Shown here piece after piece: positions 28,062 through 36,695 of a stretch of 41,171 nucleotides of DNA (positions are counted from its first letter, which is position 1; each line of letters begins with the position of its first letter). The notes under the pieces are model-generated. The model saw only the letters and a list, made by a program, of their open reading frames with translations. It was not told the DNA's origin and did no database searches. A program made the translations under genes and the position numbers. Source of the DNA: a virus (Duplodnaviria > Heunggongvirae > Uroviricota > Caudoviricetes); the IMG/VR virus record IMGVR_UViG_2778261424_000010, positions 1 through 41,171 of that record, one strand, 5' to 3'.

Positions 28062-28599
28062 CACCAGCACAGAGCGCGGCTGGCTGACACCCACCAGCGG
28101 CGATCCGGATTATGACGAAGCGCTAGACAGGCTGTTAAGCCAGTGGATGCGCAACGTTTCCGGCTTGCCAGCTGGGATGGTTCGCCCGCGCTGGCAGAAA
28201 GATCAGCCGCCACTGCTGCCCATTGAAACGAACTGGTGCGCGTTCGGCGTTACCGGATGGCCCATTGATAACAGTCCTGCATTCACCAATCAGACCGACG
28301 AGGGCGCTGAGCTCTGGCGACATGAAACGTTCGAGTGCATGGCGTCGTTCTATGGCCCGGCTGGTATGTCTTATGCGTCCCGTTTTCGCGATGGCATATC
28401 TGTCCCGCAAAACAATGCTGAGCTGAACGCGCTTGGGCTGTCTCTTGGCGACTATACCGGTCTGACCCCTTTCCCCGAACTTATCAACCAGCAATGGGTT
28501 CGCCGCTACGACATGACGGTGCGCCTGCGCCGGAAGGTTGTGCGCGAGTACGGCATCAAATCGCTGGTGGAAGCGCCAGTCACCTTTTTTGGAGAATAA
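28036..28599 (+). CDS. Tail completion/neck candidate
   Basis: Internal ATG (MGELPLSNNTS…); position only. Confidence 0.35.
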   Translation: MGELPLSNNTSTERGWLTPTSGDPDYDEALDRLLSQWMRNVSGLPAGMVRPRWQKDQPPLLPIETNWCAFGVTGWPIDNSPAFTNQTDEGAELWRHETFECMASFYGPAGMSYASRFRDGISVPQNNAELNALGLSLGDYTGLTPFPELINQQWVRRYDMTVRLRRKVVREYGIKSLVEAPVTFFGE

Positions 28600-28602
28600 A
28601 CT

Positions 28603-29763
28603 ATGACGCAGGGTTTACCTGTATCCAACGTTGTAAACGTTGATGTGATCATCTCGCCGAAAGCGGCTACTGGTCGTAACTTCGGCGCGCTGCTGATCCT
28701 CGGTTCTTCCACTGTCATTCCGGTGCAGGAGCGCGTTCGCCTTTATGCGTCCGTTGAGGACATTGGCGAAGACTTCGGTGTCGACAGCCCGGAATATAAA
28801 GCAGCGCAGGTTTTCTTCAGCCAGTCACCGAAGCCGACACAGGTTTATGTTGGTCGCTGGGCGAAGACGCTGAGTTCTTCCGAGAGTGGAGATACTGAAA
28901 CTATCGTGCAAGCCGTTAATGCCTGCCTGCAATATACCAACTGGTATGGGCTGGTTGTCGCTGATGATGTTGTCGCTGGTGGCGATGTGCTTGATGCTGA
29001 TGACGTGATTGAGGTCGCCAAACTTATTGAAGCGTCCAGCCTTAGCCGTATCTTTGGTGTGACCTCTGCCGACGCCGAGATTATCAGCACGACTTCGACG
29101 ACCGATGTTGCGTCGAAATTAAAGGCTGGCAAGTATGCCCGTACCTTTATTCAGTATTCCACCAGCAGCCCTTACGCAGCGGTTTCTGCTTTCGGTCGTG
29201 CGTTTACTGTCAATTTCAACGGCAGCAATACCACCATTACCCTGAAGTTCAAACAGGAACCAAGCGTAACCTACGAAACGTTGACGGTAGGCCAGGCGGC
29301 TGCGGTGGATACGAAGAATGCGAACGTGTTCGTGTACTACGCCAACGACACGGCGATCCTGCAACAGGGTGTCATGGCGAACGGTGACTTCTTCGACGAG
29401 CGCCACGGGCTCGACTGGTTGCAGAACTACGTTCAGACCAACCTCTATAACCTGCTTTACACCAGCACCACCAAAATTCCGCAGACTGATGCCGGTGTGA
29501 CCCGTCTGCTTTCCAACGTTGAACAGTCCATGGATCAGTCCGTCACGAACGGTCTGGTAGCTGCTGGCGTGTGGAATGGTGGACCTATCGGACAGCTGAA
29601 TTCCGGCGATACGCTGACCAAAGGCTATTACGTGTATGCGCAACCGCTGTCCGAACAGGCGCAGGCCGACCGCGAAGCGCGCAAAGCACCGTTAATCCAG
29701 GTGGCCTGTAAGCTGGCTGGCGCAGTTCATTATGCCGATGTGCAGATCAACGTGGTTCGCTAA
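28603..29763 (+). CDS. Tail sheath protein (DUF3383-like)
   Basis: 386-aa ORF followed by small tube-like ORF; family by memory. Confidence 0.6.
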
Positions 29764-29773
29764 GGAGCGATAA

Positions 29774-30214
29774 ATGGCAACTTATTCTTTTCTCGATGTA
29801 ACCGCGTCGCTCACCGGGCCGACCGGCGTTATCGATCTTGGTCAGGGTTCTGCGAACTCTGAGGAAGGTATCACCCAGACCATGGGCGGCAACAAAAACA
29901 CCATGACCATCGGTGCCGATGGCGAGGTGATGCACAGCCTGCACGCCGATAAGTCAGGCACCATTACGGTGACGCTACTCAAAACCTCCCCGGTGAATAA
30001 AAAGCTGTCTCTGGCGTATAACGCGCAAAGCCAGTCCTCTGCCACCTGGGGCAATAACGTGATCGTCATTCGCAACACGGCATCGGGTGATATTTCTACT
30101 GCGCGTTCGTGTGCATTCCAGAAACAGCCTGATTTCAATAACGCTAAAGAGGGCGGAACCGTCGCCTGGGTATTCGACTGCGGCAAGATTGACCAGCTTC
30201 TCGGGGAGTTTTAA
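29774..30214 (+). CDS. Tail tube protein
   Basis: 146-aa ORF after sheath. Confidence 0.55.
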   Translation: MATYSFLDVTASLTGPTGVIDLGQGSANSEEGITQTMGGNKNTMTIGADGEVMHSLHADKSGTITVTLLKTSPVNKKLSLAYNAQSQSSATWGNNVIVIRNTASGDISTARSCAFQKQPDFNNAKEGGTVAWVFDCGKIDQLLGEF

Positions 30215-30217
30215 CGC

Positions 30218-30643
30218 ATGGAATTCGAAATTAAAGGCGTGAAATATCGCACCGCAAAGCTCAGCGTTTTCGAACAGCTGAAGGTGTCCCGCAAGCTGTT
30301 GCCGGTTCTGGCCGGGATGGTTTCGGACTTCCGGAGCGTTCAGGAGAAGATCAGCAGCAAAGACACCGAAGGCGCGATGGCTACCATCCTGCCAAAGATT
30401 GCCAATGCTGTGTCCGATCTGAGTGATGGCGACGTGGACGCTATCCTGTTCCCCTGTCTTTCCGTTGTTTCACGCGAGCACATGAAAGGCTGGGTGCCGG
30501 TCTGCCAGCATGGCGAAATGGCGTTTGACGATATCGACCTGCTTACCATGCTGCAACTGGTGGCGCGGGTGGTCGCCGACTCTCTGGGAAATTTTTTGCA
30601 AGGACTCCCTACCAGCGAGACGCCCACCCCGCTAGCGGAATAA
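30218..30643 (+). CDS. Tail assembly chaperone (short form)
   Basis: 141-aa ORF directly upstream of tape measure; slippery heptamer near 3' end. Confidence 0.55.
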   Translation: MEFEIKGVKYRTAKLSVFEQLKVSRKLLPVLAGMVSDFRSVQEKISSKDTEGAMATILPKIANAVSDLSDGDVDAILFPCLSVVSREHMKGWVPVCQHGEMAFDDIDLLTMLQLVARVVADSLGNFLQGLPTSETPTPLAE

Positions 30644-30831
30644 CCTTCAACAGCCTGCCGGGCGGTGAAGATTTTATTCTTCGCCCGGCGCTTGCCTTCC
30701 ATATTGACCAGAAAGACCTTAACAGCGGTGCGGTAGACCTTTGCCGCATCGCGCTTCTCAATGACTACCTCGACATGCGCGAGGATAACGACGCCCGGGT
30801 AGATAAATGGAGAGCGGCCAATGAGCGGTAA
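30218..30831 (+). CDS. Tail assembly chaperone, predicted -1 frameshift-extended form
   Basis: A_AAT_TTT heptamer at 30589-30595; -1 frame open from there to TAA at 30829-30831. Confidence 0.45.
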
Positions 30832-33088
30832 CGCAGATACGATTAAAGATTTCCTTGTTTCGCTGGGATTCGATATCGATCAGGCTGGCGCTAATAAGTT
30901 TGAAGCCGTGCTGAAAGGCGTTACAGCTAACGTTCTGAAGGTCGGCGCGGTGGTGGAAGGCGCAGCGCTGAGCATTGTCGGATTTACCACTCAGATCGCG
31001 AACGGTCTGGATAAAATTTACTGGGCATCCCAGCGGACGGGGGCCAGTGTCCAGGGCATCAAAGCGCTGGGATACGCCGCATCGCAAACCGGTGCCAGCG
31101 CCGAGTCGGCTATGTCCTCCCTCGAAGGGCTGGCCGGTTTCATGCGTAGCAATCCGGGCGCGGAAGGCTTCCTGAACCGCCTGGGCGTCCAGACTCGCGA
31201 TGCCAGCGGAAAGATGCGTGATACTGCGGCCATCTTTACTGGCGTTGGGCAAAAGCTCAACAACATGCCGTATTACCGCGCGAAACAATACGCGCAGATG
31301 CTTGGCATCGATGAAAACACGCTGATGGCGATGCGGCGCGGCATGAATGGCTTTACCGCCGATTACCAGTCGATGCTGCAAAAGACAGGGTTCAACGCTG
31401 ATAAAGCGGCTGTTCAGTCCAACAAATTCATGACGTCCATGCGCGGGCTTACGTCGCTGTTCGGCATCATGCGGGACAAGATCGGCTCAAACCTCGCTGG
31501 TGGCCTGGCTGGTTCGCTGGACAGCCTGCGGCGGCGCATCCTCGACAATTTCCCGAAGATTGAAGAGACGCTGACCAGAGTTATTAAAGGCGTGATCTGG
31601 CTTGCGAACGCATTCACGAGAATGGCGTGGCGGCTGATACAGGGCGCTGGCTCTGTCATCGACTGGTGGAAGCGTCTTGACGATGGCAGTAAAAATCTGC
31701 TGAAAATATTCGGTGCTCTACTTGTCGCATGGCGTCTGCTTAATTCTGCGTTCCTGAAATCCCCGATTGGAATTATCACCACGCTGATTCTGGCGATCGG
31801 ATTACTCTATGACGATTATCAGACGTGGAAAGAAGGCGGTAAAAGCCTGATTGACTGGTCCAAGTGGGAGCCTGCAATAGAAAAGGCGAAAAAGGCAATT
31901 CTCTGGCTGCGCGATAAGCTTCTGGGGCTGAAAGATTCTGTTGGTGGATGGCAGAACTCGCTGGAAATTTTGGCTACTTTCATCGCTGGGGTATGGGTAA
32001 CAAAAGTATTGGGAGCATTCGCAAAAATATCCGGTCTTCCGATACCTCCATGGCTTAAATTATGGGGAGCGTATGCTGGTTACCTGGTTTCAGATCGTGA
32101 AAACATAAAAGCCAGTGCTAAATCATCTTTGGACTATACCAAAAGGAACATTGGTGATGCTCTTGCTACGGTTGGCATCAAAACCGACCTTGGGCGAAAA
32201 GATGTTAGCGAGGTAAGAGAATGGCCCGCATGGATGGATTGGCTGCATGGTGGCCCAGGTAAGATTATTCGTCAGGCGCAAAGCAATGGCGTCGTTTATG
32301 GCGATAATGTTCAGCCTGACATTCCCGGGGCGGAACAGCATGTTCGTAGTAATGAAATTGCCCCGCATGAAAGAGATGAAATAAAAAACCGTCAGCAGGC
32401 TGCTAATGGTTATCTTGAAAAAATCTCAGACGGGATTGCCAAAATCGGTAATTTATTTTTCTCCCCGGTTGGAGCTGCTGAAATCTCTCCAAATATATCG
32501 GGTGACCCCTCCCAGTTTGCGCAATCAGTCAAACGTCCACAGGCCACAGCCCAGGGCAAAGTATTGCTCGACTGGATGGGGCCAATGTTCAATAAACTTG
32601 AGTCGCTTTATCAACTTCCAGCTGGTCTATTGAAAAGTGTGGCGATAACCGAGTCAGGTGGTAACCAGTTCGCCATGTCCGGCGCAGGCGCGAAAGGTCT
32701 GTTTCAGTTTATGGATGGTACGGCGCGCGACATGGGCCTTCGCGGAAACGATGTATTCGACCCGCAAAAGTCAGCTCAGGCCGCAGCTAAGTACCTCAGC
32801 CAGCTGTTGCGGCAGAACGGCGGAGACCTTAGCAAAGCACTGGCATCATATAACTGGGGGATCGGGAATGTTAAGCGCTATGGCATGGGGTTAATGCCGC
32901 AGGAAACGCGTAACTACATTCCGAAAGTAATGAGCAACATGCCCACCAGCGCCCCGGTGATTCAGCAGGAAACGAATATTAACATCCACGGCGTTTCCGA
33001 TCCGCGCGAGGCTGCCCGTTTGACTGTTGATCGTCAAAAGGGCGTGAATTCACAGTTAACCCAGCAACTCCCCGCAGGACCGAGATAA
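30821..33088 (+). CDS. Tape measure protein with C-terminal lytic transglycosylase (SLT-like) domain
   Basis: 755-aa ORF; C-terminal …ITESGGNQF…GLFQFMDGTARDMG…YNWG… resembles SLT catalytic motifs. Confidence 0.75.
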   Translation: MSGNADTIKDFLVSLGFDIDQAGANKFEAVLKGVTANVLKVGAVVEGAALSIVGFTTQIANGLDKIYWASQRTGASVQGIKALGYAASQTGASAESAMSSLEGLAGFMRSNPGAEGFLNRLGVQTRDASGKMRDTAAIFTGVGQKLNNMPYYRAKQYAQMLGIDENTLMAMRRGMNGFTADYQSMLQKTGFNADKAAVQSNKFMTSMRGLTSLFGIMRDKIGSNLAGGLAGSLDSLRRRILDNFPKIEETLTRVIKGVIWLANAFTRMAWRLIQGAGSVIDWWKRLDDGSKNLLKIFGALLVAWRLLNSAFLKSPIGIITTLILAIGLLYDDYQTWKEGGKSLIDWSKWEPAIEKAKKAILWLRDKLLGLKDSVGGWQNSLEILATFIAGVWVTKVLGAFAKISGLPIPPWLKLWGAYAGYLVSDRENIKASAKSSLDYTKRNIGDALATVGIKTDLGRKDVSEVREWPAWMDWLHGGPGKIIRQAQSNGVVYGDNVQPDIPGAEQHVRSNEIAPHERDEIKNRQQAANGYLEKISDGIAKIGNLFFSPVGAAEISPNISGDPSQFAQSVKRPQATAQGKVLLDWMGPMFNKLESLYQLPAGLLKSVAITESGGNQFAMSGAGAKGLFQFMDGTARDMGLRGNDVFDPQKSAQAAAKYLSQLLRQNGGDLSKALASYNWGIGNVKRYGMGLMPQETRNYIPKVMSNMPTSAPVIQQETNINIHGVSDPREAARLTVDRQKGVNSQLTQQLPAGPR

Positions 33089-33999: not shown

Positions 34000-35064
34000 A
34001 TGTCTCTTAACTGGATGCGCCATTTTGAGCTGCAACTGTTGGACCAGAACGGGCAGGGCGTTTCCCTGTCTGACTTTAAGGTCACGTTCCAGATCGAGTG
34101 GGCAGACACACGCTGGCCACGCGTGGCGAACGTGAAAATTTACAACCTTTCGACCGATACCACGAACAAGATACTGGGGCAGGAGTTTGCAAAAATTCGC
34201 ATCATTGCCGGGTATGACGGTATTGCGCCGGATGTTGATGCGAGCCAGGTTGGTGTCGCCCGGGAGATTTCACCAGACCAGGTAGGGCAGGTGAACGGTC
34301 AGAACTACGGCCTGATATTTGACGGTGATATTCGCTTCACCGTCACCGGGAAGGACAACATCACCGATTCCTGGGTGCTGATTCAGGCCATCAGTAACCA
34401 CGAAGCGTTCCTCTACGCGACTACCATCACCACGCTTGCCGCTGGTTATACCGTTGCGGACCTGCACCGGGCGACTATGCAGGATTTCAACGCGTTCGGC
34501 GTGACGCAGGGCATTACCGGTGACTTTCCTGATACCGTGTTTCCTCGTGGCCGTGCGATTTATTCATCCACCCGTAACGTGATGGATAATATTGCTGCGC
34601 AGTGCAAAGCGACATGGCAGCTGGTGGATGGTCAGGTCCAGATGGTGCCGGAGGATAAATATATTCACGAAGCCATTGTGTTGAATGCCGATACTGGCCT
34701 GATCGGTATGCCGCAACAAACGATGGGCGGCGGCGTAAACGTGCGGTGCCTGATAAACCCAAACATCCGTATTAATGGTCTTATCCAGCTCGATCAGGCT
34801 TCGGTGTACCGCGCCGCGCTCGGCAATAGCGAAATCGCACAGTCGCCCGGGCGTATCACCGAAACAGAAGAGAACGGCAACCGTGTGCTGACCGGCACGA
34901 CGTCACAGGCTGCCAGCATTGCGACGGATGGCGTTTATATCGTCAAAGCTATCGACTATACTGGCGACACCAGAGGTCAGGCGTGGTACATGGATTTGAT
35001 GTGTTTTGCGCGTGGCGCTCGTGATCTTTATAGCCCGAAAGCAATGCAAGGGACGACGAATTAG
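34000..35064 (+). CDS. Baseplate hub/late-control-D-like protein candidate
   Basis: 354-aa ORF in baseplate series. Confidence 0.4.
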   Translation: MSLNWMRHFELQLLDQNGQGVSLSDFKVTFQIEWADTRWPRVANVKIYNLSTDTTNKILGQEFAKIRIIAGYDGIAPDVDASQVGVAREISPDQVGQVNGQNYGLIFDGDIRFTVTGKDNITDSWVLIQAISNHEAFLYATTITTLAAGYTVADLHRATMQDFNAFGVTQGITGDFPDTVFPRGRAIYSSTRNVMDNIAAQCKATWQLVDGQVQMVPEDKYIHEAIVLNADTGLIGMPQQTMGGGVNVRCLINPNIRINGLIQLDQASVYRAALGNSEIAQSPGRITETEENGNRVLTGTTSQAASIATDGVYIVKAIDYTGDTRGQAWYMDLMCFARGARDLYSPKAMQGTTN

Positions 35065-35076
35065 TGAGGTGGGGCC

Positions 35077-35421
35077 GTGAGACATTTACTTTGCACTGTT
35101 ACCGTGTTCGCGGTGCTTATATCAGCACCCGCTTTTGCGGATCAGCAATGTGGTGATTTTAAAATCCATTGGGCAGATGATGGCTTAGCCAGAATCAATG
35201 GCGCAAAGCCAGAAATGCAAAAAATCACCTTCCTGAAAAACAAAGGCGATTATAACAATATCAAGATGGATTGGCGTATGGCTACCGATCAGCCTGGAAG
35301 ATGGGTTGGTCTTGAGTACATCAATCGAAACGGCAAAGCCATTCTCAACGCACAGTGGTTGCAAGCCAGCATGGATTCGCCGCGTCAGTATGCAACATAC
35401 GACTGCCGAAAAGTAAAATAG
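35077..35421 (+). CDS. Cargo gene: secreted/periplasmic 114-aa protein with Sec signal peptide
   Basis: GTG start after GAGGTGGGG; signal peptide MRHLLCTVTVFAVLISAPAFA|DQQ; two Cys; AT-rich. Confidence 0.5.
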   Translation: MRHLLCTVTVFAVLISAPAFADQQCGDFKIHWADDGLARINGAKPEMQKITFLKNKGDYNNIKMDWRMATDQPGRWVGLEYINRNGKAILNAQWLQASMDSPRQYATYDCRKVK

Positions 35422-35439
35422 CCCGCCAGATAGGCGGGC
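35411..35439 (-). terminator. Rho-independent terminator for minus-strand cargo gene
   Basis: GCCCGCC-AGATAG-GCGGGC hairpin with U-tract on minus strand. Confidence 0.45.
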
Positions 35440-35444
35440 ATGCG

Positions 35445-35735
35445 TCAAAAATATTGAGCTTTAATTATAATAAACACAATAATTACGAACAGGATGTTTC
35501 TAATTATTTTTTGCTTATGAGTAAGTTGTTTTTTTTCTGTCGATTTCCCGGGAGAGTAAAGGTTAGTGGTATGCGACAGCCCCGTGCCGGGAAGGCCATT
35601 TGTCATCTTTACGCCTTTTTTTCCGATGTTAATGGTGGAACCTTTACCACCAATTGAAGTGCTTACTCCGCTTTTACTAATGTTGATCGCGAGTCCGGGC
35701 GCAATCCGGATTCTTTTACGAAATCTAAATCCCAT
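35445..35735 (-). CDS. Cargo gene: DUF4236-like small protein with C-terminal hydrophobic anchor
   Basis: MGFRFRKRIRIAPGLAINISKSGVSTSIGGKG N-terminus (DUF4236-like by memory); C-terminal ILFVIIVFIIIKAQYF; very AT-rich. Confidence 0.5.
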   Translation of the reverse strand: MGFRFRKRIRIAPGLAINISKSGVSTSIGGKGSTINIGKKGVKMTNGLPGTGLSHTTNLYSPGKSTEKKQLTHKQKIIRNILFVIIVFIIIKAQYF

Positions 35736-35922
35736 TTGTTACTCCTGTAGTCAATAATGCGATGGTGCAGGTCCACTCTATGGCGGCTTCATGGCTGAAA
35801 TTGATTTTCAATGCTTACTTGTTGCAAACATATCCTAATACACCTTGTGAATGTGTGCCATTGCAGCGGAAAAGCCTTACTTCACACTGATGTAGCTTAG
35901 TTACTAAGAGATAATTGATACC

Positions 35923-35947
35923 AAACCAGCTTCGGCTGGTTTTTTTA
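35923..35947 (+). terminator. Rho-independent terminator just upstream of gpV-like gene
   Basis: AAACCAGC-TTCG-GCTGGTTT hairpin followed by TTTT. Confidence 0.55.
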
Positions 35948-35957
35948 TGGGGGTTTT

Positions 35958-36695
35958 ATGCCAATTCCAACTCAATCACAGATCGGGGGTGAGCAGCAGA
36001 CCGCGCAGGCCATTGCCGATTCGGTGTCTACCCAGATGCGCGTAGCGATGCCCGGCATCATTCAGTCGTTCGATCCTGACACTGTTACCTGCACAGTAGA
36101 GGTAGCGCTTCGCGGTATTGTTGGCGATGGCTCCACCGAATTAAAACCGCTGGTGGATGTGCCGGTTATCTTCCCGCGCGGCGGCGGTTGCACGCTGACC
36201 TTTCCGGTAAAAGAAGGCGACGAGTGCCTGCTGATCTTTGCCGACCGTTGCATCGATTTCTGGTGGCAGAGCGGCGGCGTTCAGGAGACCGTCGACCCGC
36301 GCCAGCATGACTTATCTGATGCGTTCGCCATCGTTGGCCCGCAGTCGAAAGCGCAGAAAATAAGCGGTATCAGTACCAGCGCCGCGCAGCTGCGCAGCGA
36401 CGACGGAAGCTCGTTCTTTGAGCTCAACCCCACTACGCAGAAAATTAAAATCGTAGCGCCTGGCGGTCTGGAAGTGGTTACCCCGCTGGCCGACTTCTCG
36501 GCGAAAGTTACCATTCACGGGCTCCTTTCCTGGCTTGGTGGAATGGTGGGTTCTGTTGCTTCTGGCGTTGCATCCAAAATCACTGGCGCTGTCGAGTTTA
36601 TCGGCACCGTTAAAGCTAACGGTAAGTCAATTGATGATACGCACACTCATGGAGGCGTGCAGCATGGCACCAGCAACACAGACGGGGTGAACTGA
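35958..36695 (+). CDS. Baseplate spike / gpV-like protein
   Basis: 245-aa ORF; position before gpW/gpJ-like genes. Confidence 0.5.
   Translation: MPIPTQSQIGGEQQTAQAIADSVSTQMRVAMPGIIQSFDPDTVTCTVEVALRGIVGDGSTELKPLVDVPVIFPRGGGCTLTFPVKEGDECLLIFADRCIDFWWQSGGVQETVDPRQHDLSDAFAIVGPQSKAQKISGISTSAAQLRSDDGSSFFELNPTTQKIKIVAPGGLEVVTPLADFSAKVTIHGLLSWLGGMVGSVASGVASKITGAVEFIGTVKANGKSIDDTHTHGGVQHGTSNTDGVN

What the first reader, a model, noticed from the sequence alone, without database searches (positions are those of the whole stretch)
30589..30831. Predicted -1 programmed ribosomal frameshift in the tail assembly chaperone
Near the 3' end of the chaperone gene the in-frame heptamer A_AAT_TTT (30589-30595) fits the X_XXY_YYZ slippery pattern. 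The -1 frame is open from there for about 78 codons and terminates at 30829-30831, overlapping the tape-measure start. This reproduces the conserved G/GT (lambda) and E/E' (P2) chaperone frameshift architecture.
Basis: partly seen in the sequence, partly recalled or inferred. Interest (0 to 1): 0.4.

Follow-up and report, generated by a model that had tools for sequence, protein, structure and literature searches.

The report
Tail chaperone -1 frameshift site
The tail-assembly chaperone gene of this prophage-like myovirus almost certainly makes a second, longer protein by a programmed -1 ribosomal frameshift, which is a well-known phage trick already predicted for related phages, so the finding is sound but ordinary.

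Summary
The chaperone ORF (30218-30643, Pfam Phage_TAC_15) contains, in frame, CTG GGA AAT TTT TTG. The -1 frame is open from there to TAA at 30829-30831 and overlaps the tape-measure ATG at 30821.

- The -1 extension is a conserved protein: it hits Pfam DUF6889, has dN/dS of about 0.2, and varies mostly at third codon positions.
- It has no start codon of its own.
- Conservation in the -1 frame begins immediately after the T-run.
- Synonymous variation in the 0 frame collapses exactly at GGA AAT TTT TTG.
- The two-frame layout recurs in 78 of 81 intact bacterial loci and 39 of 40 phage records.

One refinement concerns the slip site. T_TTT_TTN is present in all 81 intact loci and is the same heptamer as phage P2's annotated E/E' site. 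Sequence alone cannot tell which site dominates.

I found no conserved stimulatory RNA structure. Frameshift products are already annotated for homologues in phages Mulock and Magia. This is a new member of a known kind, of low interest.

The parts
29774..30214 (+). Tail tube gene (context; it lies immediately upstream of the chaperone)
   Evidence: Pfam KPP10_Orf10, E = 5.8e-60. The sheath gene (DUF3383/phrog_205) lies at 28603-29763.
30218..30643 (+). Tail assembly chaperone ORF in the 0 frame, 141 aa, stop TAA at 30641-30643
   Evidence: Pfam Phage_TAC_15, E = 4.4e-33; phrog_1688 'tail assembly chaperone', E = 4e-57. Translation.
30586..30598 (+). Slippery run G_GGA_AAT_TTT_TTG, made of three overlapping in-register X_XXY_YYZ heptamers
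   Evidence: Among 80 distinct homologues, synonymous codon use collapses here: GGA 76/80, AAT 77/77, TTT 80/80, TTG 71/72. Neighbouring codons vary freely.
30589..30595 (+).
   Evidence: Present in 76 of 81 intact bacterial loci. Six of seven distant relatives have NNT_TTT in the same register; in four this is a true heptamer: A_AAT_TTT in an Acinetobacter phage, C_CCT_TTT in two Burkholderia phages, G_GGT_TTT in a Ralstonia phage. In E. coli reporters it shifts at 11.4% with a strong pseudoknot and 0.07% without one (Sharma 2014, Table S3).
30592..30598 (+). Heptamer T_TTT_TTG (P site Phe UUU, A site Leu UUG)
   Evidence: T_TTT_TTN is present in all 81 intact bacterial loci. It is the only heptamer left in L112, L120, L145, L152 and L161. 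It is the same heptamer and register as the annotated -1 site of phage P2 E/E+E'.
30592..30831 (+). Coding extension in the -1 frame (FFARTPYQRD...KWRAANER, then TAA at 30829-30831). It adds 78 residues after the slip and gives a 204-aa fusion.
   Evidence: Codon-position entropy is 0.72/0.60/1.42. dN/dS is 0.20 in this frame and 1.5-1.6 in the other two. The window has no ATG/GTG/TTG in this frame before the conserved domain.
30709..30816 (+). DUF6889 domain match inside the -1 extension (fusion residues 165-200)
   Evidence: Pfam PF21829, E = 1e-10, 41.6 bits against a cut-off of 23.9. phrog_4364, E = 2.4e-17. The -1 extensions of the Acinetobacter and Burkholderia relatives also hit it.
30809..30814 (+). 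GGAGAG Shine-Dalgarno sequence of the tape-measure gene, embedded in the invariant Trp-Arg codons (TGG AGA G) of the -1 extension
   Evidence: Sequence. Trp is invariant in 76 of 76 extensions. TGGAGAG recurs upstream of the tape-measure ATG in most homologues. That it acts as a ribosome-binding site is an inference.
30821..33088 (+). Tape-measure gene with a C-terminal SLT lytic transglycosylase domain. Its ATG overlaps the end of the -1 extension.
   Evidence: phrog_2276, E = 1.3e-219; Pfam SLT, E = 1.9e-24.

Best explanation
This is a programmed -1 ribosomal frameshift of the lambda G/GT and P2 E/E+E' type.

Most ribosomes translating the chaperone gene (30218-30643) stop at TAA 30641-30643 and make the 141-aa chaperone. 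A small fraction slip back one base on the run G_GGA_AAU_UUU_UUG (30586-30598). The slip is either on A_AAU_UUU, where tRNA-Asn moves AAU to AAA and tRNA-Phe moves UUU to UUU, or one codon later on U_UUU_UUG. These ribosomes then read 78 more codons in the -1 frame to TAA 30829-30831. The result is a 204-aa protein with the chaperone domain, a probably disordered linker, and a C-terminal DUF6889 element.

Shown here: the two-frame architecture, the coding nature of the -1 frame, the lack of an independent start, and selection on the slippery nucleotides.

Inferred by analogy with lambda gpG/gpGT: both products bind the tape-measure protein through the shared N-terminal domain, the extension recruits the tube protein, the ratio of the two products matters, and neither ends up in the virion. 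The efficiency is unknown. With no conserved stimulator detected, I guess roughly 0.5-10%.
For: - Gene order is sheath, tube, chaperone, tape measure.
- There are three in-register heptamers, and the -1 frame is open to the tape-measure start.
- The -1 extension hits DUF6889 and phrog_4364.
- Across 76 distinct homologous extensions, codon-position entropy is 0.72/0.60/1.42. The Arg two codons after the -1-frame FF (the fourth codon of the extension) is invariant although its codons switch between CGN and AGR.
- dN/dS is 0.20 in the -1 frame and about 1.5 in the other frames. In the overlap, the -1 frame is more conserved (1.30 bits) than the 0-frame tail (1.97 bits).
- Synonymous variation in the 0 frame collapses exactly at GGA AAT TTT TTG.
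- The -1 frame is open for 77-84 codons from the T-run to a stop at the tape-measure start in 78 of 81 intact loci from different species.
- In L112, L152 and L161 a -1-frame stop immediately precedes the T-run, which pins entry to that spot.
- 38 of 77 loci, including the window, have no ATG/GTG/TTG upstream of the conserved domain, and no start position is conserved.
- Database entries for 'DUF6889 family protein' have arbitrary N-termini and lengths of 46-75 aa. PGAP starts the E. coli entry at an ATA codon.
- 39 of 40 phage records match the fusion protein in two frames.
- Distant relatives keep a slippery site at the homologous position.
- GenBank annotates frameshift products for the homologues in Mulock and Magia, and the Magia paper states it.
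- P2's annotated -1 site is the same T_TTT_TTG heptamer in the same kind of gene.
Against: - There is no protein-level or reporter evidence for this gene family. All support is comparative.
- I found no conserved stimulatory RNA structure. Without stimulators, the three heptamers shift at only 0.07-0.12% in E. coli reporters. Native efficiency is therefore uncertain, although P2's TTTTTTG site also has no reported downstream structure, and its frameshift efficiency is reported as 2-3 times that of lambda.
- One of the two peptide patterns used to collect the 80 bacterial loci contained DSLGNF. This biases the amino acids at the site, though not the codon choice. The phage tblastn set does not share this bias.
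Confidence: 0.9

Rival explanations
1. The mechanism is the same, but the productive slip is on U_UUU_UUG (30592-30598) or G_GGA_AAU (30586-30592), not on the reader's A_AAU_UUU. The junction would read ...GNFLARTP... for U_UUU_UUG. For the other two sites it would read ...GNFFARTP....
For: - T_TTT_TTN is present in all 81 intact bacterial loci. A_AAT_TTT is lost in five (L112, L120, L145, L152, L161) and G_GGA_AAT in ten.
- The Leu codon is TTG or TTA in 72 of 72 cases and never CTN.
- P2 uses T_TTT_TTG for E/E+E' in E. coli with no downstream structure.
- The Bordetella phage IFTN9 keeps only G_GGA_AAT.
Against: - In E. coli reporters with a strong stimulator, A_AAU_UUU shifts at 11.4%, U_UUU_UUG at 0.77% and G_GGA_AAU at 1.05%.
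- The last two T's of the run also encode the second Phe of the -1 product, so their conservation does not prove they are used for slipping.
Confidence: 0.4
2. DUF6889 is a separate small gene translated from its own, possibly non-canonical, start codon, as PGAP annotates it. No frameshift is involved.
For: - RefSeq annotates a 63-aa 'DUF6889 family protein' CDS corresponding to window 30640-30831.
- Some relatives have an ATG inside the -1 ORF, and annotators call a separate gene there: Edwardsiella ZHS_22 and BgManors32 gp60.
- 23 of 77 loci have an ATG at codon +29.
Against: - The PGAP start is ATA, and I saw no Shine-Dalgarno sequence upstream of it.
- The window has no ATG/GTG/TTG in the -1 frame before codon +34, and neither do 37 other loci. 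No start position is conserved.
- Annotated N-termini are inconsistent.
- Strong -1-frame conservation (FFARTP..., with an invariant Arg) starts at the T-run, about 17 codons upstream of the PGAP start.
- The suppression of synonymous change at the slippery run would be left unexplained.
Confidence: 0.04
3. The long product arises from transcriptional slippage. RNA polymerase adds an extra U on the T6 run, so a fraction of mRNAs carry the two ORFs in one frame.
For: - A T6 run preceded by A3 is a homopolymer context.
- Natural DNA variants with T7 exist that fuse the frames, which shows the run is indel-prone.
- Sharma et al. link the under-representation of U7 and A7 runs to such slippage.
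Against: - From general knowledge, efficient bacterial transcriptional slippage needs runs of about 8-9 or more identical bases. T6 is short.
- Homologous genes in Acinetobacter and Burkholderia phages have only T4 at the site yet keep the two-frame architecture. Polymerase slippage therefore cannot be the family-wide mechanism.
- The register-specific conservation of the P-site codon (AAT, CCT, GGT) fits tRNA re-pairing, not polymerase slippage.
Confidence: 0.04
4. The open -1 frame is a chance feature, or the locus is a decayed gene carrying a sequencing or mutational indel. Nothing is programmed.
For: - In-frame heptamers are common: 23 in 18.4 kb.
- A few prophage copies are indeed broken: L107, L147, L156 and L161.
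Against: - dN/dS is 0.2 only in the -1 frame, and the extension hits a Pfam domain.
- The layout is identical in 78 of 81 intact loci, in 79 of 80 near-identical viral contigs and in 39 of 40 phage genomes.
- The 0-frame stop lies about 10-18 codons after the slippery site in the intact loci.
Confidence: 0.01

Closest known systems
Phage P2 gpE / gpE+E' (-1 frameshift in the FETUD tail operon of an E. coli myovirus)
   Same: - Both are contractile-tail phages of enterobacteria.
- A small chaperone ORF lies directly upstream of the tape-measure gene.
[quoted passage not shown]
- The extension ends in a short domain of about 37-40 aa whose last codons overlap the tape-measure ATG (AATGAG...TAA in both).
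- No downstream RNA structure is found.
   Different: - There is no detectable sequence homology. P2 has Phage_TAC_7 plus Phage_P2_GpE, and this locus has Phage_TAC_15 plus DUF6889. hhalign probability is 0.3% or lower.
- The fusion here is larger (204 aa against 142 aa).
- This locus has two additional overlapping heptamers.
Phage lambda gpG / gpGT
   Same: - The chaperone lies between the major tail gene and the tape-measure gene.
- Low-level -1 frameshifting near the end of the first ORF makes a fusion protein.
- The ratio of the two products is functionally important (30:1 in lambda). This supplies the mechanistic model for what the two products do.
   Different: - Lambda is a siphovirus.
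- Its heptamer is G_GGA_AAG (Lys in the A site). The homologous-looking G_GGA_AAT here has Asn in the A site and is a poor shifter in E. coli (1.05% against 43% with the IS3 pseudoknot).
- There is no Pfam-level similarity; only Phage_TAC_15 is hit.
Annotated chaperone frameshifts in Klebsiella phage Mulock (MN098327) and Burkholderia phage Magia (MT701587)
   Same: - They belong to the same protein families, Phage_TAC_15 plus DUF6889.
- Mulock carries the same slippery run, GGGAAATTTTTTG, at the homologous codons. Its chaperone region is about 69% identical at the nucleotide level.
- Both GenBank records carry a joined 'tape measure chaperone frameshift product' CDS. The Magia paper mentions the frameshift.
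   Different: - Those are bioinformatic annotations in other phages.
- Magia has C_CCT_TTT rather than the A/T run.
- The E. coli RefSeq copy that is 99.9% identical to the window's chaperone region is annotated as two separate genes with no frameshift.

Membership tests
G/GT-type tail assembly chaperone frameshift (Xu, Hendrix & Duda 2004 architecture) | Two overlapping ORFs lie between the major tail or tube gene and the tape-measure gene. | tested here: met
   Tube 29774-30214, chaperone 30218-30643, -1 ORF to 30831, tape measure 30821-33088.
G/GT-type tail assembly chaperone frameshift (Xu, Hendrix & Duda 2004 architecture) | The second ORF is in the -1 frame, overlaps the 3' end of the first, and lacks its own start codon and ribosome-binding site. 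| tested here: met
   The -1 frame is open from 30529 to 30831. The window has no ATG/GTG/TTG before codon +34, and no start position is conserved across 77 loci.
G/GT-type tail assembly chaperone frameshift (Xu, Hendrix & Duda 2004 architecture) | An X_XXY_YYZ slippery heptamer lies in the 0-frame register within the overlap. | tested here: met
   There are three: G_GGA_AAT, A_AAT_TTT and T_TTT_TTG at 30586-30598.
G/GT-type tail assembly chaperone frameshift (Xu, Hendrix & Duda 2004 architecture) | The slippery site and the two-frame layout are conserved in relatives beyond what the protein sequence requires. | tested here: met
   T_TTT_TTN is present in 81 of 81 loci. Codon choice at the site is fixed while flanking codons vary. 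78 of 81 loci have an open -1 frame, and 39 of 40 phage records match in two frames.
G/GT-type tail assembly chaperone frameshift (Xu, Hendrix & Duda 2004 architecture) | The fusion protein is made at a low, fixed percentage. Both products are needed for tail assembly and are absent from virions. | not testable with these tools
   This needs mass spectrometry, a western blot, reporter assays and genetics.
P2 E/E+E' protein families (Pfam Phage_TAC_7 + Phage_P2_GpE) | Sequence homology to gpE and to the E' extension. | tested here: not met
   hhalign of alignment A3 against P2 E+E' gives probability 0.3%. The extension profile against E' gives 0.1%. Pfam scans show no cross-hits.
P2 E/E+E' protein families (Pfam Phage_TAC_7 + Phage_P2_GpE) | A T_TTT_TTG slip heptamer near the end of the chaperone ORF. 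| tested here: met
   P2 has GGT TTT TTG, with the annotated frameshift site directly after it. The window has T_TTT_TTG at 30592-30598.
Lambda gpG/gpGT | A G_GGA_AAG heptamer, and homology to gpG and gpT. | tested here: not met
   The window has G_GGA_AAT, with Asn rather than Lys in the A site. Pfam reports only Phage_TAC_15 and DUF6889.
Pfam Phage_TAC_15 (PF21822) + DUF6889 (PF21829) | Scores above the curated gathering thresholds. | tested here: met
   114.9 bits against a cut-off of 22, and 41.6 bits against 23.9.
Stimulated bacterial -1 frameshift sites (dnaX / IS911 / IS3 type) | A conserved hairpin or pseudoknot 5-9 nt downstream of the heptamer. | tested here: not met
   RNAalifold gives -1.1 kcal/mol over 76 sequences. 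The mean MFE z-score is -0.5. Two candidate helices pair no better than shuffled controls. There is no Rfam hit.
Stimulated bacterial -1 frameshift sites (dnaX / IS911 / IS3 type) | A Shine-Dalgarno-like element about 10-14 nt upstream. | tested here: inconclusive
   GGGTGG at 30567-30572 is the best anti-SD match within -200..+60 nt of the site, averaged over the loci. It lies 13, 16 and 19 nt from the three heptamers, is absent in some clades, and also encodes Arg-Val-Val.
Transcriptional slippage sites | A homopolymer run of roughly 8-9 or more A or T (from general knowledge). | tested here: not met
   The run is T6 here and only T4 in the Acinetobacter and Burkholderia homologues.

The most novel reading that the evidence does not exclude
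The run G_GGA_AAU_UUU_UUG works as a tandem slippery site with no stimulator. Ribosomes get two or three consecutive chances to slip, which would yield two trans-frame isoforms (...GNFFAR... and ...GNFLAR...). Natural T6/T7 length variation of the run, with T7 fusing the frames as in E. coli ISC7, would shift the ratio of short to long chaperone. DUF6889 would then be a tube-recruiting 'T domain' family that is made only by recoding and is currently mis-annotated as a free-standing gene in many enterobacterial genomes.
Probability: 0.25. Interest if true: 0.35.

Novelty: new member of a known kind. Interest (0 to 1): 0.2.

Why it matters
The main value is for annotation. In the RefSeq E. coli genomes I checked, the locus is split into a 'phage tail assembly chaperone' and a free-standing 'DUF6889 family protein' that starts at a non-canonical codon. 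Older records call the small ORF 'lytic transglycosylase'. Recognising the frameshift gives DUF6889 a context: it is the recoded C-terminal extension of a tail chaperone.

The locus is also a clean natural example of three overlapping slippery heptamers. Each of them is the sole candidate in some relative, which could be useful for studying how slip sites drift. It does not change what is known about phage tail assembly or recoding.

Tried and rejected
1. **Downstream stimulatory structure.** RNAalifold on 76 homologous regions gave essentially nothing (-1.1 kcal/mol). MFE z-scores for the 70 nt after the site averaged -0.5. A candidate long-range helix, CUCCCC:GGGGAG, with ideal 6-nt spacing paired in 65% of cells against 64.5% in shuffles. 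A stable hairpin in the window itself (30664-30685; the 30596-30700 region has z = -2.66) is about 70 nt away and is not conserved (61% paired against 62% in shuffles). I rejected all of these as conserved stimulators.
2. **Rfam scan of 30300-31000.** It returned only a sub-threshold ssnA hit on the minus strand.
3. **Homology to P2 E/E'.** I tried profile comparisons and Pfam cross-scans and found none.
4. **Structure.** AlphaFold2 modelled the chaperone domain confidently (pLDDT 80-96). Residues 127-161 came out disordered, and the C-terminal helices had low confidence. Foldseek against the PDB gave no hit with E < 0.8. phmmer against PDB sequences and a scan of NCBIfam also gave nothing.
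5. **The Mulock genome paper.** It does not mention the frameshift; only the GenBank record does.
6. **Christie 2002 (P2).** The paper is not held in the library, so P2's roughly 10% efficiency rests on my memory and on a review's statement that it is 2-3 times that of lambda.
7. **The first viral-contig scan.** It returned only near-identical loci, which were of little use for conservation tests.
Full report
**1. The observation**

The 141-aa ORF at 30218-30643 reads ...GTC GCC GAC TCT CTG GGA AAT TTT TTG CAA GGA....

The -1 frame is open from 30529 to TAA at 30829-30831. A slip at the heptamer adds 78 residues and gives a 204-aa product.

A heptamer alone is not remarkable. The structural genes of the window contain 23 in-frame heptamers in 18.4 kb. 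However, only 4.5% of codon positions have a -1 frame open for 80 or more codons (median 11). This heptamer's -1 frame alone fills an otherwise empty 177-nt gap in a tightly packed gene cluster. The one other case that runs well past its gene (33037) simply reads into the next gene.

**2. What the genes are**

| Coordinates | Identification | Evidence |
|---|---|---|
| 28603-29763 | Tail sheath | DUF3383, phrog_205 |
| 29774-30214 | Tail tube | KPP10_Orf10 / DUF3277 |
| 30218-30643 | Tail assembly chaperone | Phage_TAC_15, E = 4e-33; phrog_1688 |
| 30821-33088 | Tape-measure protein with C-terminal SLT domain | phrog_2276, Pfam SLT |
| Downstream of 33088 | Baseplate proteins | |

The -1 extension itself matches Pfam DUF6889 (41.6 bits, cut-off 23.9) and phrog_4364.

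The chaperone region is 96.8% identical to Citrobacter phage Omnitron. It is at least 95% identical to prophages in 37 complete E. coli genomes.

**3. Is the -1 frame really translated, and from where?**

I collected 80 loci from different bacterial species, with 47-100% chaperone identity, plus phage Mulock.

- **Open frame.** In 78 of 81 intact loci the -1 frame runs 77-84 codons from the T-run to a stop at the tape-measure start. The exceptions, L107, L147 and L161, plus the disrupted chaperone in L156, look like decayed prophages.
- **Coding signature.** Across 76 distinct extensions, per-codon-position entropy in the region unique to the -1 frame is 0.72/0.60/1.42. dN/dS by the Nei-Gojobori method is 0.20 in the -1 frame and 1.5-1.6 when the same bases are read in the other two frames. 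The extension is as conserved as the chaperone body (1.13 against 1.14 bits).
- **Where conservation starts.** It begins immediately after the T-run, with FF-A-R-T-P. The Arg is invariant even though its codons switch between CGN and AGR. In the overlap, the -1 frame (1.30 bits) is more constrained than the 0-frame tail (1.97 bits).
- **Upstream boundary.** The -1 frame closes 0-21 codons upstream of the T-run in most loci. In L112, L152 and L161 a stop lies directly before the T-run.
- **No start codon.** 38 of 77 loci, including the window, have no ATG/GTG/TTG between that upstream stop and the conserved domain. No start position is conserved.
- **Database entries.** 'DUF6889 family protein' entries have arbitrary N-termini and lengths of 46-75 aa. 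PGAP starts the E. coli copy at an ATA codon, which corresponds to window 30640.

Together these results exclude a chance ORF and argue strongly against an independently initiated gene.

**4. Selection on the slippery nucleotides**

Synonymous codon diversity in the chaperone gene is normal up to Ser122. For example, Asp121 is GAT 41 and GAC 37. It then collapses:

| Residue | Codon use at the site |
|---|---|
| Gly124 | GGA 76/80 |
| Asn125 | AAT 77/77 |
| Phe126 | TTT 80/80 |
| Leu127 | TTG 71/72 |

Elsewhere in the same gene, Asn is mostly AAC, Phe is about 55% TTT, and Leu is mostly CTG.

One of the two search patterns used to collect these loci contained DSLGNF. That biases the amino acids at the site but not the codons.

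**5. Which heptamer?**

Counts among the 81 intact loci:

| Heptamer | Present in |
|---|---|
| T_TTT_TTN | 81/81 |
| A_AAT_TTT | 76/81 |
| G_GGA_AAT | 71/81 |

In L112, L120, L145, L152 and L161 only T_TTT_TTN survives.

T_TTT_TTG is also the annotated -1 site of P2 E/E+E'. There it reads GGT TTT TTG in the same register, with no downstream structure.

First, six of seven distant relatives found by tblastn carry NNT_TTT with Phe UUU in the A site, and several of them lack the T6 run:

| Phage | Site |
|---|---|
| Acinetobacter Ab105-1phi | A_AAT_TTT A |
| Burkholderia BgManors32 and Magia | C_CCT_TTT A |
| Ralstonia PY059YO380 | G_GGT_TTT_TTC |
| Edwardsiella ZHS | GAT_TTT |
| Burkholderia E192a | TCT_TTT |
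| Bordetella IFTN9 | G_GGA_AAT only |

Second, E. coli reporter data from Sharma et al. 2014, Table S3 give these -1 frameshift percentages:

| Heptamer | No stimulator | IS911 stimulators | IS3 pseudoknot |
|---|---|---|---|
| A_AAU_UUU | 0.07 | 0.36 | 11.4 |
| U_UUU_UUG | 0.12 | 0.25 | 0.77 |
| G_GGA_AAU | 0.07 | 0.11 | 1.05 |

I conclude that the slip occurs within 30586-30598. The two sites give products that differ by one residue (...GNFFAR... against ...GNFLAR...), which mass spectrometry could distinguish.

**6. Stimulators**

I found no conserved downstream structure.

The window's own downstream 105 nt fold somewhat better than shuffled sequences (z = -2.66). However, the stable hairpin lies about 70 nt away and is not conserved.

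An SD-like GGGTGG at 30567-30572 is the best anti-SD match near the site when averaged over the loci. It coincides with an unusual preference for CGG and GTG codons. Its spacing of 13-19 nt and its patchy distribution leave this inconclusive.

Absence of a stimulator is normal for this class of site; P2 has none either.

**7. Mechanism and function**

The steps shown here are the two-frame architecture, the coding -1 extension, entry into the -1 frame at the T-run, and selection on the slippery bases.

The following are inferred from lambda and P2. A minority of ribosomes slip -1, giving a short-to-long ratio that matters for assembly. The shared N-terminal domain binds the tape-measure protein. 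The extension recruits the tube protein. Neither product is in the virion.

The AlphaFold2 model fits this picture only weakly. It shows a confident chaperone domain whose last helix ends at the slip site, then about 35 residues predicted as disordered, then low-confidence C-terminal helices that cover DUF6889.

The invariant Trp-Arg codons near the end of the extension (TGG AGA G) contain the GGAGAG Shine-Dalgarno sequence of the tape-measure gene. The -1 stop overlaps the tape-measure ATG. Translational coupling is therefore possible.

**8. Comparison with known systems and novelty**

The architecture is that of lambda G/GT and P2 E/E+E', and it even shares P2's heptamer. There is no detectable sequence homology to either.

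Within the same protein families (Phage_TAC_15 plus DUF6889), joined frameshift products are already annotated for Klebsiella phage Mulock, which has an identical GGGAAATTTTTTG run, and for Burkholderia phage Magia. The Magia paper states that a programmed frameshift was identified.

The E. coli RefSeq copy that is 99.9% identical to the window's chaperone region is annotated as two genes with no frameshift.

The finding is correct, is a new member of a known kind, and is of low interest beyond improving annotation.

Noticed in passing
L163:1895-1910 (Logan SRR23924998); proteins P0004 and P0121: A variant of the same locus has T7 instead of T6 (GGGAAATTTTTTTG). The chaperone and DUF6889 are then fused in one frame as a 213-aa protein. 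About ten fused members of 212-213 aa exist, including CDL28562.1 from E. coli ISC7 and a UniRef100 entry shared by 10 E. coli records. This could be homopolymer sequencing error, a decaying prophage, or a real variant in which the ratio of short to long product is inverted.
   Followed up: partly
window 30640-30831; L002:2367-2558: PGAP annotates the -1 ORF as a free-standing 63-aa 'DUF6889 family protein' that starts at ATA. Other database entries for the family start at arbitrary points and are 46-75 aa long. Older records name them 'lytic transglycosylase', apparently by proximity to the SLT-bearing tape-measure gene. This looks like a systematic mis-annotation of a frameshift extension.
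   Followed up: yes
window 30567-30572: GGGTGG, formed by codons CGG GTG G of Arg117-Val118, is the strongest anti-Shine-Dalgarno match within -200..+60 nt of the slip site, averaged over 77 loci. Arg117 uses the rare CGG codon in 46 of 69 loci and Val118 uses GTG in 72 of 80. It could be an upstream stimulator, but the spacing of 13-19 nt is long and some clades lack it.
   Followed up: partly
window 30664-30685: There is a local 8-bp hairpin, GGUGAAGA/UCUUCGCC, inside the -1 extension, and a long-range stem forms around it. The 30596-30700 region folds with z = -2.66. The hairpin is not conserved in homologues and is too far from the slip site to be a classical stimulator.
   Followed up: yes
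window 35064-35958: An 893-nt interruption of the tail and baseplate gene cluster holds two ORFs. One is a small plus-strand ORF (35077-35421) with a signal-peptide-like N-terminus and no Pfam hit. The other is a minus-strand DUF4236 protein (35445-35735). This looks like a moron or cargo insertion.
   Followed up: partly
L107, L147, L156, L161: Four of the 80 bacterial loci have a truncated or rearranged -1 extension or a disrupted chaperone gene. The hosts are Enterobacter, Izhakiella, Apirhabdus and an Arsenophonus MAG. These are probably decaying prophages.
   Followed up: no
window 28467-28643: [quoted passage not shown] Their -1 frame is open for 58 codons and runs 44 nt past the stop into the sheath gene start. 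This is probably chance.
   Followed up: no
window 30894-30936 (minus strand): There is a sub-threshold Rfam hit to the ssnA RNA (19.6 bits against a gathering score of 37.3, E = 0.02) inside the tape-measure gene. It is most likely chance.
   Followed up: no
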